Source of the DNA: the human T2T-CHM13v2.0 reference genome, Homo sapiens
DNA: 64,000 nt
Assembly: GCF_009914755.1 (NCBI RefSeq)
Contig: NC_060929.1
Strand: one strand, 5' to 3'
A program made the position numbers and the translations under genes. Below, one piece after another: positions 4,986 to 29,778 of the stretch. A model generated the notes under the pieces. The model saw nothing but the letters and a program-made list of their open reading frames with translations, was not told where the DNA came from and did not search any database. Every line of letters begins with the position of its first letter. Position 1 is the first letter of the stretch.

Positions 4986-5050
4986 TTTTTTTTTTTTTTT
5001 TTTTTTTTGAGTCGGAGTCTCACTCTGTCGCCTAGGCTGGAGTGCAGTGG
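4986..5050 (-). mobile_element. Extremely 5'-truncated Alu (42 bp of right arm plus T23 tail)
   Basis: T23 is followed by GAGTCGGAGTCTCACTCTGTCGCCTAGGCTGGAGTGCAGTGG, then non-Alu sequence. Confidence 0.9.
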
Positions 5051-5943: not shown

Positions 5944-6385
5944 AAGCAAGACTAGGGTGAGGCAAGAGAGGTTTCTACAGTGAAATTTAAGGAGACACTC
6001 TTTCTCAGGGTAAGGCAAGTGCCTCCTTAAATTTTGTGCCATAGAGCTACTTAGGAGGCTGAGGCAGGAGGATTGAGGAGGTCAAGATCAGCCTGGGCAA
6101 CATAGTGAGACCCTGTCTTAAAAAAAGAAAAAATTAGCCGTGTGTTGTTGGTTCATACTTGTAGTCCTAGTTACTAGAGAGGCTGAGGTGGGAGGGTTAC
6201 TTGAGCCCAGGAGGTTGAGGCTGCAGTGAACTATGATTATACCACTGCACTCCAGTCTAAGTGACAGAGTGAGACCCTGTCATAAAATAAAATAAAATAA
6301 TAAAATAAAATAAAATAAAATAAAATAAAATAAAAAAAGTTATGCCAGAGAAGCTTCTCTTGCTTCAACATACTCCCAGTCCCAC
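5944..6385 (+). mobile_element. MER96-like palindromic hAT MITE split by an Alu
   Basis: gactagggtgaggcaag...aaatttaaggagacact...agtgcctccttaaattttgtgcc forms an internal inverted repeat. The element resumes after the Alu with cttgcttcaacatactcccagtccc. Confidence 0.7.
6045..6338 (+). mobile_element. AluJ with (TAAAA)n tail
   Basis: Dimeric Alu with J-type gggagggttacttgagcccaggagg. The tail is a TAAAA repeat. Confidence 0.9.
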
Positions 6386-18249: not shown

Positions 18250-19047
18250 GTAACTGCCTCATGGAGCAAGAATGAAAACAAGCCAGTTTTGTGTGGTAAG
18301 CCTGGCCAGTTTGGATTTCACGTCTAAATGAGTACAAATAGTTTATATCCTAAAATTCTGCATGCCCTGGTCAAATAACCTTTGCATTCAAAACAATTGA
18401 TTGAAACTTTTATAGTACAGTATGGTTGATTCTGAAGATGCAGAAAAGACTGTGCTTTTCAGATCCTGTCCTAAAGAGTAGTTGAATCCTTTGCTTGTGG
18501 AAAATCAACAGAGGCAGAACAGAAACTTCTGTTGGCAATTTTCCTTAATAGTTCAATAAAATGTTTCACCCTGCTATCTTGTGATATATTTGTAGTTCTG
18601 TAAATATACTATGGCACTTGGGGTGAGACAGGAAGGAAGAGGGACATGTCTAATTATAAAAATCAGTGTGAGCTGGCTGGCAGATATGCGCGGAGGAAGA
18701 AAAATACCATGTTACGTGATGACATCTTTCTTATCATACAGTGTGCTTTGCCGCCATTGTAAAGTGCTCTTCTACTGTGTATTTTATTTTTTTCTTAGTG
18801 ACAACCTTCAAATGAAGTGTGCTTTTGTAAGAGTCTTTTCTACAATGTAGAATCCACACCAAGAACATGCGTAGAATGCCCTACCAGGATTTTATCTCTT
18901 TGTGCCTGGCTCGAGTTTGTACTTGGTATGATCTCTTATTTTAGGAACTAGCCTGAGGCATCCAGACCCTTGCTGCTGCCATCCCTAGAGAGACAAAAAT
19001 GAAGGAAATAGAGTTGTACAAGAGAGGAATTTAAAGAGATCTCCCCC

Positions 19048-19290
19048 AACAGTTTTCAAGCTGCTTTTTCTTCTCCCTTCCTGTCTTCCTTCTCTTTTCC
19101 TCCCTGTCTCCTTCCTTCCTTTCATTCCTTCCTTCCTTCTTTTTTAAAGCCCTAAGAACCATTTCTTCTGTTTAAAGTTTGTATGGAGCCCCAAAGGAAG
19201 ATAAAATAAAGACTGCTCTGGTAGAAGCATAGATAAGTACCCAGAACTCTTCCTAGTGTGGTTCTGGGGAGAATAATTTGAAAACACCCA
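19048..19290 (+). mobile_element. MER117-like hAT-Charlie relic with CT-rich expansion
   Basis: cagttttcaagct...gataaaataaagactgctctggtagaagc...taatttgaaaacac. Confidence 0.5.
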
Positions 19291-19629
19291 ATTAATTATA
19301 TTAAAAACAGAGACCTAGACATTTGAATGATTTGTTATAGTTTCTGATTTTGACTTCAGAGACAATGTGAGTATGCTGAATTCTCCTGGTAATGGGGAAA
19401 TTTTTGACATGATTTGCCAAATCTAGCTGTTGAAGTTTTAGATTTCCTCTGTTTCTTACTTGTTTTAATAGTAAGTTTGACTATAGTAGCAAAATCATGT
19501 GGGTCAATTTTGTTTCCCACTTTTCTTTATAATTTTAGATAAGATCATATATGTTTTACACATAGTTCTGTTGTAATAATTGTGGGAAAAGTCTGGTAGA
19601 TGTAAAGCTGCACATTTTAGGAAAGACTA

Positions 19630-19766
19630 GTCTGGGTGCAGTGGCTCACATCTGTAATCCTAGCACTTTGGGAGGTTGAGGTGGGAGGATCACTTGAGGC
19701 CAGGAGTTTGAGACTAGCCTTGGCAACATAGAGAGACCCCTGTCTATACAAAAAAAATTATAAGAA
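19630..19766 (+). mobile_element. FLAM_C / free left Alu monomer
   Basis: A single Alu left arm with A-tail. TSD GAAAGACTA lies at 19621-19629 and 19767-19775. Confidence 0.88.
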
Positions 19767-20062
19767 GAAAGACTAAAAACTTCCTATTCTCTAAGACAAA
19801 TGTTTATTCTGTAATTGCAATGCAAAAATATTATTTGAAAGCTTATAAATGAATTGCTCCCCCCAAATTACAGTTTAGCAAATCTGTAATCTCTTGAAAA
19901 AAAATCTGAAACGTCTTTAAAATTTTTTTAGCATTTCTTACACTGCAACATTTTTCTATTTTTCTTCTATGTCCTAAAGAAGACATCTACCTGAAATTAG
20001 GACATTATGTGTGTAACATTACGTGATTGTGAAATAGCTGCCTGCTCTAGAAGGTCCTTGTT

Positions 20063-20078
20063 CCTCTAGGGGGCAGTG
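20063..20078 (+). promoter_or_regulatory. Candidate CTCF binding site
   Basis: CCTCTAGGGGGCAGTG closely matches the CTCF core consensus (CCWCYAGRKGGCRS) and sits in non-repeat DNA. This is a motif match only. Confidence 0.5.
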
Positions 20079-20721
20079 CTTTACTTTTACATCACCAACC
20101 CGGAGTGAAAATATAAGAGCAGCTTTGTTTCTTAAAAGACTAGAAGTAGTTCATTCTGCTCATTCTCTCTCTTCGTTTTAAAAATGTATTGTACAGCTGA
20201 GACATTTAACAAGACATGCTTTTAACCAGAAAATATCCAAGATAATTAGAACTTCCATAAACATATTTGATTTGGAGTTTTTAGGGAAGATTTCTTTGGC
20301 TTTACCTCTTTATTTTCTAAGAAAGCATAGAATGAGCTTGACTTATGCTCCAAATTTAGTTATTATATAATTGTATTGTCCTTTCTGAAAGATAAACTTT
20401 CTTCCCCCTTAAAAACAATTTTGATTTAAGGTTCCAGATGTGTCACTTGACTTGCTAAAAAACAAAGCAAAGCAAAACAAAAACCAGAAAGCCAACCAAA
20501 ACCCAAAAAGCCAATCAAAACAGGAACCATAACATCCAGTTTGTTCTCTTTGGTTCTACTTTTCTATTTTTCATGCAATTTAAAATTTTAGACTATTTCC
20601 CTTGTGCCACAGACTTCTTTTTTTTTTTTGTGGTAGTTCCAGAAAACAAATGGATTTATTAAGAAAACAAAATCCGCCTCCATTTCTTTCAGCCCATTCT
20701 CATCCCATACTTCTTAAAAGC

Positions 20722-20879
20722 TATATGTGTATATATATATATGTACATGTGTATATATGTATATATATGTACATGTGTATATATGTATATATATGTACAT
20801 GTGTATATATGTATATATATACATACGTACATATGTGTGTATATATATATATAGTGTATATATTAATATATATACACTA
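20722..20879. repeat. (TA/TG/CA) microsatellite with a 26-bp higher-order unit
   Basis: TATATATGTACATGTGTATATATGTA is repeated about 3 times, and the array ends in the near-palindrome TAGTGTATATATTAATATATATACACTA. Confidence 0.9.
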
Positions 20880-20880
20880 A

Positions 20881-21682
20881 TGTGGGCAGCAGAATTCAAA
20901 GATAGTCCCCAAGATTTCTGGACCCAGGTGTACATATACATCTTCACCCAGTTATTCTGCCAAACACTAATGTAGGTACTGCTATGAAGAGATTTTGCAG
21001 ATAAATTAAGATCCCAAATGCAGATGAATTAAGATCCTTAAATTAGGGAGATTATCTGGGTAATCTCACCTAATTATGTGAGCCCTTTAAATCTGTTTCT
21101 AGAGATCAGAGACAGAAGTCAGATAGAGTTGAGATGTGAGAAGGATTCAACTTGAGAGAGGTTCTCTATTGGTGGTTTTGAGACAGAAGGGAGCCATGGG
21201 GCAAGGACCTGCGACTGGCCTCTGGTGGCTGAGAGTGGTCCCCAGTTGACAACCAGCGAGAAAACCAGGAAAACCACCATAAGAAACTGAAGTATGACAA
21301 AACAAAATGAGCTTGGAAGTGGACCCCAAGCTCTCAGTGGTAATGTAGCCCAGACAACACATTCATTTTAGCTTTGTGACACCCAAAGTAGAGGGCTCAG
21401 TTAAGCCATACTGGTGGTAATGAATGTGAAAAAAGCTAAAATGAATGTGTTGTCTGGGCTATATTACCACTGAGAGCTTGGGGTCCACTTCCAAGCTCAT
21501 TTTGTTTTGTCATAATTCAGTTTCTTATGGTAGTTGTCTTGATTTTCTTGGTGGTTGTCAACTGGGGCCCACTGTCAGCCACTAGAGACCAGTCTGAGGT
21601 CCTTGCCCCATGGCTCCCTTCCATCTGGGTGTTATTTTAAGTCTCCAAGTTTTTTGTTATGCAGCTATAGAAAATCAATACA
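20881..21682 (+). mobile_element. MLT1E-like MaLR LTR carrying an internal inverted duplication
   Basis: Starts TGTGGGCAGCAGAATTCAAAGAT, contains aaacactaatgtaggtactgctatgaag, and ends tttgttatgcagctatagaaaatcaataca. Confidence 0.85.
21181..21626. repeat. Inverted repeat: 195-bp arms (21181-21375, 21432-21626) with a 56-bp spacer
   Basis: A manual ungapped reverse-complement alignment gives 16 mismatches in 195 bp. Confidence 0.95.
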
Positions 21683-21789
21683 ATCAAAGTAAGCACATTT
21701 CTTTAACATTATTTTTTAAAGTTGGCTTGAAAAACGGAAGTTGATACCGAAAAAATATGTTCAGCATTTGGGGATTTGCCATACCCTTT

Positions 21790-22294
21790 TATAGTGGTGG
21801 TTTGCTGGCCAATACCCATGTTCCCCTTTTCCTGGCGACATTCCCTAGTGGGTTGACTTCACACCTAGTTCCAGAGGTGAGACTCAGTTAGCTCAAGTCA
21901 TTTGGAGTGTATCATTTAGGGCATGTGACCCAAACTGGTCCAATTAGAATAAACCCCAGGAGGATTTTGGTGGGAATGTTGGGGTAAATACTTTCTTTCC
22001 TCCTTTGAGCTTAGTGATGTGATTATTGAGGTTTATAAGTATTAAAGATTCAAGGGAGAGCCTAGCATTTCTCAGGGGCTACCATGTGAAGCCTAAAAAT
22101 TAAGCAACCCAGAGGAAGAAAAGTTAAGGAGGATTCTGGTTATATTTCAGTCCTGTATTAGGCTGTTTGTGAATATAAATATGCTCCTTGATATGAGCTA
22201 ATAAATCTTTCTCTTCCCTTAAAAATTTGTTTAAGTCTATTTACTTTGAGTTTCTCGATTCTTACAAATGAAAAATAAAATCCAGACTGATAGA
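21790..22294 (+). mobile_element. Old MLT1 (MLT1K-like) LTR
   Basis: gggcatgtgacccaaactggtccaattaga...atatgagctaataaat...tccagactgataga. Confidence 0.65.
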
Positions 22295-23501
22295 CCAGTT
22301 ATCTCTCTGATTTTCATACTTTTCCTCATCTTTCAACATAGAATATGTTCCAGACTAGTAAACTGTAATCATCTGCATTTATTTCCTTTTGTCTTTGTCT
22401 AGTCTTTTAAGTCTAAAGATAAAAATTGGTTAAAAATTATAATAACATATTCTAATATTTATTGTTCTTATATTATCTGACGGAACAATCTAGAAAAATA
22501 GGTATTATGGCTTTCATAATCTTATGACACATATTTGAAGGGTATTAATTTATTATTGGCTTTGTATAAACTTTTTTCTTTTGGAAATTCTGTCAATAAA
22601 GTAGAACCCATTTTGTTTAAAAGTTTTGTTTCAATCTAGTGAAGATATAATATAGTTCTCATTAATTGACATTATAATTGCCTATAATTATATTGACAGA
22701 AACAGAGTCGTGTGTGAAAACAATTAATATTTGTTCTGTATAAAGATGAAAACAGTTGTTTTGTATTGTTAAAATTAGTATTCAGTGCCTGCTTTTAGTA
22801 CCAATCTTGCTAGCAGAAGCGAATAGACTCTATGATGCAAAATGTGATATTGCGAGCATAACACTTTGTCTTTAGTTATTTAAAATACCTTTGAAATATG
22901 TGTATTTTAAATGTATAGGTGTGTATTGAAAACTTAGTTTTGTTTATTTGTTTACTTGCTTTTTAACTTTTAGACCGTTTCCTTTATTTCAGGTATTAAA
23001 TTGTTTAGAATGTAGTTGTGAGAATAGACCTAACTGGTCTTAAGCATGGCCCACCTGGTTTGACTTTTCTGGGGATATCTTAAATATTAGTATCTTAACA
23101 GGTTAGAGTTGACTTGAATACAGTGTAAGCCAAAATTATTTCCATTTCTGTAAACACTTAAAAGTAATTTCTGGCTAAAAAAAAATCTACATGTGATAGT
23201 TCAAGAATTTTTTTTTTTAATTTCCTAAGGAAAGACCATAGAATTTCCAGCATAAGAAATACATATTTTTAATATATGACTTTCTTTCTTTTTTTAAATT
23301 ATACTTTAAGTTCTATGGTACATGTGCACAACGTGCAGGTTTGTTACATATGTGTACATGTGCCATGTTGGTTTGCTACACCCATTAACTCATCATTTAC
23401 ATTAGGTATTTCTCCTAATGCTATCCCTCCCCAATCTCCCCATCCCATGACAGGCCCCGGTGTGTGATGTTCCCTGCCCTATGTCCAAGTGTTCTCATTG
23501 T

Positions 23502-27334
<3,833 letters not shown>

Positions 27335-27397
27335 TATGATGTTAGCTGGTTATTTTGCTCGTTAGTTGATGCAGTTTCTTCCTAGCCTCGATGGTCT

Positions 27398-28415
27398 TTA
27401 CAATTTGGCATGATTTTGCAGTGGCTGGTACTGCTTGTTCCTTTCCATGTTTAGTGCTTCCTTCAGGAGCTCTTTTAGGGCAGGCCTGGTGGTGACAAAA
27501 TCTCTCAGCATTTGCTTGTCTGTAAAAGATTTTATTTCTCCTTCACTTATGAAGCTTAGTTTGGCTGGATATGAAATTCTGGGTTGAAAATTCTTTTCTT
27601 TAAGAATGTTGAATATTGGCCCCCACTCTCTTCTGGCTTGTAGATTTTCTGCTGAGGGATCAGCTGTTAGTCTGATGGGCTTCCCTTTGAGGGTAACCCG
27701 ACCTTTCTCTCTGGCTGCCCTTAACATTTTTTCCTTCATTTCAACTTTGGTGAATCTGACAATTATGTGTCTTGGAGTTGCTCTTCTCGAGGAGTATCTT
27801 TGTGGCATTATCTGTATTTCCTGAACGTGAATGTTGGCCTGCCTTGCTAGATTGGGGAAGTTCTCCTGGATAATATCCTGCAGAGTGTTTTCCAACTTGT
27901 TTCCATTCTCCCTGTCACTTTCAGGTACACCAATCAGACATAGATTTGGTCTTTTCACATAGTCCCATATTTCTTGGAGGCTTTGTTCGTGTCTTTTTAT
28001 TCTTTTTTCTCTAAAATTCCCTTCTCACTTCATTTCATTCATTTCATCTTCCATCACTGATACCCTTTCTTCCAGTTGATCGCTTCGGCTCCTGAGGCTT
28101 CTACATTCTTCACGTAGTTCCCGAGCCTTGGCTTTCAGCTCCATCAGCTCCTTTAAGCACTTCTCTGTATTGGTTATTCTAGTTATACATTCATCTAATT
28201 TTTTTTTCAAAGTTTTTAACTTCTTTGTCTTTGATTTGAATTTCCTCCTGTAGCTTGGAGTATTTTGATTGTCTGAAGCCTTCTTCTCTCTACTCATCAA
28301 AGTCATTCTCCGTCCAGCTTTGTTCTGTTGCTGGTGAGGAACTGCGATCCTTTGGAGGAGGAGAGGCGCTCTGCTTCTTAGAGTTTCCAGTTTTTCTGCT
28401 GTGTTTTTTCTCCAT
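27398..28415 (-). pseudogene. L1 ORF1p (RNA-binding/chaperone), disrupted
   Basis: Peptides ELREECRSLRSR and RPNL.LIGVPE...NFQPRISYPAKLSF...YQPLQNHAKL. The ORF is frameshifted. Confidence 0.93.
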
Positions 28416-29001
28416 CTTTGTGGTTTTATCTACTTTTGGTCTTTGATGATGGTGATGTACAGATAGGTCTTTGGTGTGGATGTCCTTTCTGTTTGTTAGT
28501 TTTCCTTCTGACAGACAGGGCCCTCACCTGCAGGTCTGTTGGAGTTTGCTAGAGGTCCACTCCAGACCCTGTTTGCCTGGGTATCAGCAACAGCAGTGTC
28601 TGCAGAACAGCGGATTGTTGTGAACCGCGAATGCTGCTGTCTGATCGTTCCTCTGGAAGTTTTGTCTCAGAGGAGTACCCGGCCGTGTGAGGTGTCAGTC
28701 TGCCCCTACTGGGGAGTGCCTCCCAGTTAGGCTGCTTGGGGGTCAGGGGTCAGGGACCCACTTAAGGAGGCAGTCTGCCCGTTCTCAGATCTCCAGCTGC
28801 GTGCTGGGAGAACCACTGCTCTCTTCAAAGCTGTCAGACAGGGACATTTAAGTCTGCAGAGGTTACTGCTGTCTTTTTGTTTGTCTGTGCCCTGCCCCCA
28901 GAGGTGGAGCCTACAGAGGCAGGCAGGCCTCCTTGAGCTGTGGTGGGCTCCACCCAGTTTGAGCTTCCCAGCTGCTTTGTTTACCTAAGCAAGCCTGGGC
29001 A

Positions 29002-29225
29002 ATGGCGGGTGCCCCTCCCCTAGCCTCAAACTGCCGCCTTGCAGTTTGATCTCAGATTGCTGTGCTAGCAATCAGTGAGACTCCGTGGGCGTAGGACCCT
29101 CTGGGGCATGTGCAGGATATAATCTCCTGGTGTGCCATTTTTTAAGCCCGTTGGAAAAGTGCAGTAATAGGGTGGGAGTGACCCGATTTTCCAGGTGCTG
29201 TCTATCACCCCTTTCTTCGACTAGG
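29002..29225 (+). pseudogene. L1 ORF0 / antisense-promoter region, disrupted
   Basis: ATGGCGGGTGCCCCTCCC (MAGAPP) is followed by a 2-bp insertion and a stop. The downstream frame gives GVGPS...RVGVTRFSRC. Confidence 0.75.
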
Positions 29226-29778
29226 AAAGGGAACTCCCTGACCCCTTGCACTTCCCGAGTGAGGCAATGCCTCACCCTGCTTCGGCTCGTGCACAGTGCG
29301 CTGCACCCACTGTTCTGCAGCCACTGTCTGGCAATCCCTAGTGAAATGAACCCGGTACCTCAGATGGAAATGCAGAAATCACCTGTCTTCTGTGTCGCTC
29401 ATGCTGGGAGCTGTAGACCGGAGCTGTTCCTATTTGGCCATCTTGGCTCGGGACTCTTTTTTTTTTTTTTAATTCCAAGGACATTTTTTATAGAGGAGGC
29501 TTAAATTTAAAGAAGTATATAGAGTGAATTGGTTTGGATTGGAATGATTGAAGGGGAGCATCTGCAAAACAGCCCTGAGGTGATGGATATGATTGGAAAC
29601 ATTGAAAGAAGGGCAGAGGATCAGGAGAAATGATGCTTAACGTGTGCCATTCAGATCAGGGAAACTGAAAAAAGAGACAAAAACCCCAAACCAAGAGGAA
29701 AACATATTGGATTTTTACTATGCCTGGAGAACAAGGGTTTATTGGCTAAGTTAATGGATCAAATAATGATATGGATGT

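What the first reader, a model, noticed from the sequence alone, without database searches (positions are those of the whole stretch)
21181..21626. 195-bp inverted duplication in an MLT1E LTR with a steep loop-proximal identity gradient
Seen: the arms 21181-21375 and 21432-21626 are ungapped reverse complements around a 56-bp spacer. By manual count the inner 99 bp have only 2 mismatches, while the outer 96 bp have 14. One outer difference is a reciprocal CpG-decay pair (agACAg vs agATGg), implying an old duplication. The spacer ends with a short extra copy (aatgaatgtg) of arm sequence, which looks like a template-switch scar. The LTR then resumes normally. Inference: after the duplication, the loop-proximal half was homogenised by intra-strand hairpin/cruciform-mediated conversion, or is being held paired by selection on an RNA stem. 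If transcribed, it would form a ~195-bp dsRNA hairpin, a possible ADAR or Drosha/Dicer substrate and a possible TE-derived small-RNA precursor.
Basis: partly seen in the sequence, partly recalled or inferred. Interest (0 to 1): 0.72.

Follow-up and report, generated by a model that had tools for sequence, protein, structure and literature searches.

The report
Inverted duplication inside an old LTR
A 195-base piece of an ancient retrovirus-like LTR was copied backwards next to itself tens of millions of years ago, leaving a real but probably functionless hairpin-shaped repeat in a gene desert.

Summary
Arms 21181-21375 and 21432-21626 are ungapped reverse complements with 16 mismatches, 14 in the outer 96 bases and 2 in the inner 99.

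The host is a solo LTR, 20881-21682 on the + strand. It belongs to a dispersed family about 71% alike. It is collinear with a copy that print names MLT1E1A (ERVL-MaLR) upstream of NT5C1B. No inner genes are present.

Comparison with 26 other copies shows that the left arm and the 56-base spacer are native LTR. The right arm is a locus-specific inverted copy inserted into it. This is the 3-2-1-4 template-switch pattern, but longer than the published maximum of 128.

The "gradient" is really a step: 1, 0, 5, 5, 5 differences per 39 bases from the loop outward. Any-split permutation gives p = 0.012. Both halves evolve equally fast in the family.

The best reading is an old duplication, roughly 25-80 Myr, followed by one later templated re-copying of the loop-proximal 83-100 bases. 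Chance is not excluded.

There is no evidence of transcription, a small-RNA family or selection. This is ordinary, and primate orthologues would settle it.

The parts
20881..21682 (+). Solo LTR of an ERVL-MaLR element (MLT1E group), including the inverted insert. It is about 607 bases without the insert.
   Evidence: Starts TGTG and ends ..ACA. The piece 20880-21431 aligns from its first bases in 25 of 26 relatives, and the tail ends at 21682-21700. The flanks 19780-20718 and 21700-22400 have no other full-length match in the genome.
21181..21375 (+). Left arm: native LTR sequence and the source of the copy.
   Evidence: Collinear with relatives together with the sequence on both of its sides.
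21376..21431 (+). Spacer or loop: native LTR sequence continuing from the left arm.
   Evidence: The alignments of 20880-21431 reach at least 21392 in 25 of 26 relatives and 21429-21431 in 8 of 26.
21432..21626 (-). Right arm: inverted copy of 21181-21375, inserted into the LTR.
   Evidence: 92% complementary and ungapped. No relative has it. Relatives run on from the 21431 side to the 21627 side with a median of 14 extra bases.
21627..21682 (+). 3' tail of the LTR, resuming after the insert.
   Evidence: Aligns just downstream of the first piece in 22 of 26 relatives.
21276..21375 (+). Near-identical inner tract, left side: 100 bases with 2 differences. The best statistical split is 21293-21375, 83 bases with 1 difference.
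21432..21531 (-). Near-identical inner tract, right side.
21419..21428 (+). 10-mer in the spacer. It is identical to 21440-21449 and complementary to 21358-21367. Probably native LTR sequence, and possibly a microhomology near the switch point.

Best explanation
This is a solo ERVL-MaLR LTR of the MLT1E group, inserted in the ancestor of placental mammals.

Step 1. Much later, during replication or break repair, the growing strand left its template near 21431. It copied 195 bases of the nearby LTR backwards, from 21375 to 21181 in complement. It then returned to its template within about 0-20 bases of where it had left. This is one template-switch event of the 3-2-1-4 type. It made a 446-base quasi-palindrome with a 56-base loop of native LTR.

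Step 2. Both arms then drifted apart neutrally. Later still, a second templated event re-copied the 83-100 bases next to the loop from one arm to the other and reset them to near identity. That event was either an intra-strand hairpin template switch or a short gene-conversion tract.

The structure has no detectable function.

Shown: the structure, which arm is native, that it is specific to this locus, and the step in identity. Inferred: the mechanism of both steps, the dates, and neutrality.
For: - Arms and counts.
- Native left arm and spacer, inserted right arm: 25 of 26 relatives are collinear through the left arm. In 22 of 26 the tail follows directly, with a median of 14 extra bases in the relative.
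- Specific to this locus: 0 of 26 relatives hold a homologous inverted repeat. Non-self genome hits to the arms are single-copy places at 67-85% identity.
- The arms are 92% alike while other copies are about 71% alike, so one arm derives from the other.
- Step pattern: 1, 0, 5, 5, 5 differences per 39 bases. The step model gains 5.81 log-likelihood units against 2.91 for a linear gradient, and the outer 95 bases are uniform (KS p = 0.43). The permutation p is 0.012.
- The halves do not differ in long-term rate: identity to relatives is 0.688 vs 0.685 and 0.699 vs 0.699.
- Both arms carry changes: in arm-neutral alignments the left state is commoner at 8-9 outer sites and the right at 4-5.
- Print: the 3-2-1-4 pattern gives single inverted repeats (PMC7954356, passages). 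Template switching homogenises inverted-repeat arms (PMC13100816, abstract and passages; PMC8604942, abstract in the listing). It can make and maintain hairpins (PMC8794818, PMC10710096, passages).
Against: - There are only 16 differences. The step rests on p of about 0.01, and the finding was chosen because of this pattern.
- No orthologue or second human assembly could be examined, so neither event is dated by presence or absence, and concerted change in the inner tract is untested.
- At 195 bases the copy is longer than any of the published gold-standard short-range events (median 12, maximum 128).
- Microhomology at the first switch is only an A/T run of 3-6 bases. At the return point it cannot be read, because the native bases there are not known.
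- 7 of the 16 differences are transversions, more than I would expect from plain neutral drift (that expectation is recalled).
Confidence: 0.55

Rival explanations
1. One inverted duplication and nothing more. The clustering of differences in the outer half is chance plus ordinary local variation in mutation, since that half is richer in G+C and had CpGs.
For: There are only 16 differences. The corrected p is 0.012, and the finding was selected for this pattern among many repeats read. Outer-half G+C is 0.58/0.53 against 0.40/0.38 for the inner half, and 3 of the 14 outer differences are CpG-type.
Against: Without the CpG-type sites the split is still 11 vs 2, p = 0.012. Across 24-26 relatives the two halves are equally diverged, 0.688 vs 0.685. 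The pattern is a sharp step, with perfect runs of 52 and 30 bases next to the loop.
Confidence: 0.25
2. A younger duplication made by error-prone repair synthesis. Many of the outer differences would be copying errors present at birth in the new arm, not age.
For: 6 of the 14 outer differences are transversions. Two pairs are adjacent (21184-85, 21211-12), and several lie within 20 bases of one another. With the left arm as query, the left arm holds the family-commoner state at 10-11 of 14 outer sites.
Against: That asymmetry flips to 5:9 when the right arm is the query. It shrinks to 8-9: 4-5 in arm-neutral alignments, so it is largely alignment bias. On that count the source arm itself changed at 4-5 outer sites. 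The CA/TG pair needs one change in each arm.
Confidence: 0.1
3. The inner stem is kept paired by selection because the locus is transcribed into a long hairpin RNA that is processed (Dicer, Drosha) or edited (ADAR).
For: Either strand folds into an almost continuous 195-bp stem: -355.6 and -349.5 kcal/mol, z = -38 and -34. MaLR-derived miRNAs are tabulated in print (PMC10136691, table passages). Template-switch hairpins have become miRNAs (PMC10710096, passages).
Against: Any inverted repeat folds like this. There is no gene, transcript or functional element in the 64-kb window, and the nearest gene, RIOK2, is 49 kb away. No Rfam family reaches its threshold; the best overlapping hit is a plant family, MIR2600, at 43.6 bits against 98. 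Wobble-compatible differences show no strand bias, 4 vs 5 of 16. The stem is far longer than the 30-55 bases used in print for miRNA-like hairpins. None of the 66 related places lies within 1 kb of an annotated small-RNA gene.
Confidence: 0.05
4. An assembly artefact, such as a fold-back chimera in the reads.
For: None found. Only one assembly could be read here.
Against: The arms differ at 16 sites, including a CpG decayed separately in each arm. An artefactual fold-back would be a perfect palindrome. At 446 bases the structure lies well inside single long reads (inference).
Confidence: 0.01

Closest known systems
Short-range template-switch mutations (four-point model, 3-2-1-4 pattern) in great-ape genomes (PMC7954356)
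   Same: A nearby stretch is copied in reverse complement and replication then resumes close to where it left. This gives a single inverted repeat with a loop of native sequence. The rest of the locus stays collinear.
   Different: The copied stretch is 195 bases, against a median of 12 and a maximum of 128 in the published gold-standard set. The ancestral state is inferred here from paralogous LTR copies, not from orthologues.
Homogenisation of imperfect inverted-repeat arms by template switching (quasi-palindrome correction) (PMC13100816, PMC8604942, PMC8794818)
   Same: It would explain why the part of the stem next to the loop is near-perfect while the rest has drifted. The mechanism needs only a pre-existing imperfect inverted repeat.
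   Different: Published cases involve arms of about 10-48 bases and spacers up to 70. Here the tract would be 83-100 bases. The event itself is not observed, only a pattern at p of about 0.01.
Template-switch-born miRNA hairpins (PMC10710096) and MaLR-derived miRNAs (PMC10136691)
   Same: A hairpin created in one step inside or near a transposable element.
   Different: Those hairpins have 30-55-base stems and evidence of expression. This one has a 195-base stem, no annotation, no Rfam match and no nearby transcript.
Inverted Alu pairs as ADAR substrates (PMC526178, seen in a search listing only)
   Same: Long intramolecular double strands formed by two inverted copies of a repeat.
   Different: Those are two independent insertions inside transcribed genes. 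This is an internal duplication of one LTR in an untranscribed desert, as far as the annotation shows.
Large sex-chromosome palindromes with arm-to-arm gene conversion (recalled, no call)
   Same: Inverted arms kept alike by intrachromosomal conversion.
   Different: Those are kilobases to megabases long, contain genes, and are uniformly more than 99% alike. Here only the inner ~100 bases are alike.

Membership tests
ERVL-MaLR LTR, MLT1E group | Dispersed, many-copy repeat of old age | tested here: met
   The first look found 162 candidates, of which 40 were scored. It listed 39 non-self matches at 66-83% identity on many chromosomes. Median identity to 26 relatives is 0.712, K2P 0.365.
ERVL-MaLR LTR, MLT1E group | Likeness over the full length to a copy named in print | tested here: met
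   L011 holds an LTR 5.3-5.9 kb upstream of NT5C1B, on the gene's strand. This fits the 'MLT1E1A ~6 kb upstream of NT5C1B' of PMC3836709 (passages). The window's LTR aligns with it over 20881-21431 (72.0% of 485 columns) and over the tail (75.4%). That L011 is the printed copy is my inference from position. It ranks 18th of 26 by score, so the exact subfamily stays open.
ERVL-MaLR LTR, MLT1E group | LTR ends TG...CA | tested here: met
   It starts TGTG at 20881 and ends ACA at 21682. The ends agree with where the relatives' alignments begin and stop.
ERVL-MaLR LTR, MLT1E group | Short target-site duplication (5 bases; the length is recalled) | tested here: inconclusive
   20876-20880 and 21683-21687 agree at 3 of 5 bases. 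A microsatellite abuts the 5' end.
ERVL-MaLR LTR, MLT1E group | Best match to the curated MLT1E consensus rather than E1, E1A, E2, E3 or F | not testable with these tools
   No repeat library (Dfam or Repbase) is on hand. The annotation's masked stretches carry no names and do not even cover this LTR.
ERVL-MaLR LTR, MLT1E group | Age of placental mammals | tested here: met
   Half of the median K2P, 0.18, gives about 83 Myr at 2.2e-9 per site per year. Print: MLT1 members other than A1 and C2 are widespread in eutherians and absent from opossum (PMC10735291, passages).
Template-switch mutation (3-2-1-4) | Reverse-complement copy of adjacent sequence, with the rest collinear with the state before the event | tested here: met
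   Paralogous copies stand in for the ancestor.
Template-switch mutation (3-2-1-4) | Outgroup species lack the copy at the orthologous site | not testable with these tools
Template-switch mutation (3-2-1-4) | Size in the range described for short-range events | tested here: not met
   195 bases against a maximum of 128. This lowers 'typical member', not the mechanism.
Template-switch mutation (3-2-1-4) | Microhomology at the switch points | tested here: inconclusive
   The A run 21429-21434 overlaps the complement of the T run that ends the left arm. The 10-mer lies 4-13 bases from the junction. The return point is unreadable.
Arm homogenisation / gene conversion in an inverted repeat | A discrete tract of raised arm identity | tested here: met
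   The inner 83 bases hold 1 difference and the outer 112 hold 15. The permutation p is 0.012.
Arm homogenisation / gene conversion in an inverted repeat | Lineage-specific changes shared by both arms in orthologues | not testable with these tools
   No orthologues are available.
miRNA / hairpin-RNA precursor | Stable hairpin | tested here: met
   This holds for any inverted repeat.
miRNA / hairpin-RNA precursor | Membership of a curated RNA family | tested here: not met
   Nothing in 19000-24000 reaches a gathering score.
miRNA / hairpin-RNA precursor | Transcription and processing | not testable with these tools
   No read data are available. The annotation shows no transcript or element in the window.

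The most novel reading that the evidence does not exclude
The locus is a long hairpin that keeps renewing itself. Each time the DNA next to the loop folds back during replication, the inner stem is re-copied, so an old LTR-borne palindrome stays foldable for tens of millions of years. Such self-maintained hairpins would form a standing pool from which hairpin RNAs or small-RNA genes can arise when a promoter comes near. The inner tract plus loop measures 56 + 2 x 83-100 bases. That would then mark the length of single-stranded DNA exposed at a fork.
Probability: 0.06. Interest if true: 0.55.

Novelty: new member of a known kind. Interest (0 to 1): 0.25.

Why it matters
As it stands this is a tidy natural example of two known processes in one place: a template switch that creates an inverted repeat, and a possible later re-copying of the loop-proximal stem. 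It is unusual only for its length, 195 bases against a published maximum of 128 for short-range events.

It matters mainly as a test case. Because the host LTR gives an internal clock and many paralogous outgroups, primate orthologues could date both steps. They could also show directly whether arm homogenisation acts on long quasi-palindromes in the human lineage.

There is no sign that the locus does anything for the cell. No viral gene is involved, since this is a solo LTR.

Tried and rejected
1. Repeat-family feature. I asked whether the palindrome belongs to the family consensus, as in a MITE-like element. Rejected: 0 of 26 relatives hold a homologous inverted repeat, and genome hits to the arms are single places that match in both orientations.

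2. Two independent LTR insertions head to head. Rejected: the arms are 92% alike while family members are about 71% alike, and the right arm sits inside one collinear LTR.

3. Outward growth of a short inverted repeat. Rejected: that would make the outer part the younger one, the opposite of what is seen.

4. Polarising the 16 differences with relatives, to see which arm changed. This led nowhere firm. The result is 10-11:3-4 with the left arm as query, 5:9 with the right arm, and 8-9:4-5 plus one tie in arm-neutral MAFFT alignments. I report it as inconclusive and as a warning about query bias.

5. The 'scar' reading of the spacer 10-mer. Doubtful: relatives carry a similar motif at that place. 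However, only 8 of 26 alignments reach it. I cannot exclude that a small templated event perfected it.

6. Rfam scan at permissive E-values. It gave only sub-threshold generic hairpin and microsatellite hits.

7. Target-site duplication: 3 of 5 bases, uninformative.

8. Flank searches for inner MaLR sequence. Nothing was found. The search skips common words and may miss very old sequence, so 'solo' is well supported rather than proven.

9. Literature. The searches were about mechanisms and the family, not this locus. I make no claim that the locus is absent from print.

10. Subfamily naming. It could not go beyond 'MLT1E group' without a repeat library. Consensus lengths of the subfamilies are only recalled, and I did not use them.

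Full report
**What is there.** The window holds an ungapped inverted repeat with arms 21181-21375 and 21432-21626. It is 195 nt long, 92% complementary, and has 56 nt between the arms. Pairing ends abruptly at both the outer and the inner ends. The CA/TG double difference at 21184-85 is present. The 10-mer noted at the end of the spacer occurs at 21419-21428 and 21440-21449, with its complement at 21358-21367. There are no other copies in the 64 kb. This is the only inverted repeat of its kind in the window.

**What it sits in.**
- Searching the window's own genome with the arms, and with 20880-21431, gives many dispersed matches at 66-85% identity. Each other place matches as a single copy.
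- I aligned three pieces separately to 26 distinct related copies, without joining them: 20880-21431, 21627-21700 and the arms.
- In 25 of 26 the first piece aligns from the LTR's first bases through the whole left arm to at least 21392. In 8 of 26 it reaches 21429-21431.
- In 22 of 26 the tail 21627-~21685 aligns directly downstream. The relative has a median of 14 more bases between the two pieces than the window has. The four exceptions are L008, L025 and L028, where the best tail match fell elsewhere, and L018, which is truncated.
- So the LTR runs from 20881 (TGTG) to 21682 (ACA). The left arm and the spacer are native LTR. The right arm is an inverted copy of the left arm inserted 56 bases downstream of its source, with at most some 0-20 native bases unaccounted for at the junction.
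- None of the 26 relatives has a homologous inverted repeat.
- The flanks 19780-20718 and 21700-22400 are unique in the genome by this search. This makes it a solo LTR with no inner genes to consider.

**Family and age.**
- One relative, L011, lies 5.3-5.9 kb upstream of NT5C1B on the gene's strand.
- PMC3836709 (passages read) describes an MLT1E1A MaLR element about 6 kb upstream of NT5C1B. It is syntenic across placental mammals and therefore at least 98 Myr old. That L011 is this element is my inference from position.
- The window's LTR is collinear with L011 over its whole length: 72.0% identity over 485 columns, and 75.4% for the tail. Other relatives score higher, so I name the family ERVL-MaLR, MLT1E group, and leave the subfamily open. 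No repeat library is on hand.
- PMC5753468 (table passage) lists MLT1E, E1, E1A and E2 as MaLR LTRs. PMC10735291 (passages) says MLT1 members other than A1 and C2 are widespread in eutherians and absent from opossum.
- Median identity to the 26 relatives is 0.712 and the median K2P is 0.365. Half of that gives about 83 Myr at 2.2e-9.

**Age of the duplication.** The table gives the arm-to-arm K2P and the age calibrated on the LTR itself. The calibration takes 0.18 substitutions per site in at least 98 Myr. That arithmetic is mine.

| Part of the arms | K2P | Calibrated age |
|---|---|---|
| All 195 bases | 0.087 | about 23 Myr |
| Outer half | 0.164 | about 44 Myr |
| Inner half | 0.021 | about 5.5 Myr |

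- With fixed rates of 2.2e-9 to 1.0e-9 the outer half gives 37-82 Myr and the inner half 5-10 Myr.
- Poisson limits on the counts are wide: 7.7-23.5 for the 14 outer differences and 0.24-7.2 for the 2 inner ones.
- The duplication is therefore much younger than the LTR and probably arose in primates.

**The 'gradient'.**
- The unevenness is significant.
- It is a step, not a slope. Counts per 39 bases from the loop outward are 1, 0, 5, 5, 5. A step model gains 5.81 log-likelihood units against 2.91 for a linear trend. Within the outer 95 bases the differences are uniform, KS p = 0.43. The two longest perfect runs, 52 and 30 bases, are the two nearest the loop.
- Control for CpG decay: removing the 3 CpG-type differences leaves 11 vs 2, p = 0.012.
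- Control for local rate: across the relatives the left arm is equally diverged in its two halves, 0.688 vs 0.685 and 0.699 vs 0.699. The outer half is therefore not intrinsically faster.
- Against my reading: there are only 16 events. The finding was picked for this pattern. G+C does differ between the halves, 0.58/0.53 vs 0.40/0.38.

**Which arm changed.** I tried to polarise the differences by the state commoner among relatives, keeping only summed counts. The answer depends on the query. It is 10-11: 3-4 in favour of the left arm when the left arm is aligned, and 5: 9 when the right arm is aligned. Arm-neutral MAFFT alignments give 8-9: 4-5 with one tie in the outer half, and 0: 2 in the inner half. 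I conclude only that both arms carry changes. This argues against the idea that all outer differences are copying errors made at the birth of the right arm.

**Mechanism.**
- The layout is source, 56 bases of native sequence, reverse-complement copy, then resumption close to the point of departure. This is the 3-2-1-4 pattern of the four-point template-switch model, which PMC7954356 says generates single inverted repeats (passages).
- The copied stretch of 195 bases exceeds that paper's gold-standard maximum of 128, where the median is 12.
- At the first switch the only microhomology is an A/T run: 21429-34 against the T run that ends the left arm.
Most of it is probably native. It may have helped the strands misalign, and I cannot exclude that a small templated event perfected it.
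- For the step, the simplest account is one later templated event that re-copied the 83-100 bases next to the loop from one arm to the other. Template switching between imperfect arms is known to homogenise them (PMC13100816, abstract and passages; PMC8604942, abstract in the listing). It has also been proposed to maintain hairpins (PMC8794818, passages).
- It is my inference, untested, that only the loop and the inner parts of the arms are exposed together as single strands at a fork.

**Function.**
- As RNA either strand folds into an almost unbroken stem: -355.6 and -349.5 kcal/mol, z = -38 and -34. As DNA the value is -213.9 kcal/mol. This follows from the repeat itself.
- Nothing speaks for use. 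There is no gene, transcript or listed functional element in the window. The nearest genes are RIOK2 at 49 kb and a lncRNA at 123 kb, and the nearest listed element is a silencer at 39 kb.
- No Rfam family reaches threshold in 19000-24000. The overlapping hit is a plant family at 43.6 bits against 98.
- Differences that would still pair as G.U are 4 of 16 on the + transcript and 5 of 16 on the - transcript, so no strand is favoured.
- None of the 66 related places lies within 1 kb of an annotated small-RNA gene.
- MaLR-derived miRNAs and template-switch-born miRNAs exist in print, so the kind is known. Those stems are 30-55 bases long.

**Artefact.** The 16 differences, among them a CpG decayed separately in each arm, exclude a fold-back assembly error.

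**Verdict.**
- It is a new, unusually long member of a known kind, template-switch inverted repeats. It lies in a gene desert and is of modest interest.
- The decisive evidence is descriptive and was out of reach here: the orthologous loci of other primates, other human assemblies, a genome-wide null for such steps, and public RNA data.
- Supplementary tables of the template-switch papers, which might list this locus, were closed.

Noticed in passing
window 20722-20874: A TA-rich microsatellite with a 26-base unit (5.5 copies, 84% matches) abuts the 5' end of the LTR. It gives sub-threshold Rfam hits to mir-297, mir-466 and similar families, at best 54.5 bits against 90. It is self-complementary.
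   Followed up: partly
L022:993-1096 (chr8:132.54 Mb): One of the 26 related LTR copies has its own 47-nt inverted repeat, 81% complementary with a 10-nt spacer, in the 3' part of the LTR. It lies where that copy has about 72 extra bases relative to the window. A second, independent small inverted duplication in the same family suggests such events are not rare.
   Followed up: partly
L011 (chr2:18,626,942-18,627,572, minus strand): A relative of the window's LTR lies 5.3-5.9 kb upstream of NT5C1B. By position it is very probably the DUX4-bound MLT1E1A promoter described in PMC3836709.
   Followed up: partly
window 20881-21682: The LTR is a dispersed repeat, yet it is absent from the annotation's table of masked repeats. 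That table lists only the microsatellite, 20719-20881, in this stretch.
   Followed up: no
window 19631-19747: A fragment resembling signal-recognition-particle RNA or Alu. The Rfam Metazoa_SRP hit scores 41.5 bits against 70, and the stretch 19627-19772 is masked.
   Followed up: no
window 4987-5050 and 6242-6305: A 64-nt inverted repeat, 81% complementary, with arms 1191 bases apart. Both arms lie in masked repeats, so these are probably two copies of one interspersed repeat.
   Followed up: no
window 23129-29481: About 6.3 kb of almost continuous masked repeat. Its nature was not examined.
   Followed up: no
L008:10-300 and 924-1072: Inverted pairs in the flanks of one related copy, 44-75 nt long and 72-89% complementary. 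They look like two oppositely oriented Alu-type repeats (the name is recalled) and are unrelated to the LTR.
   Followed up: no
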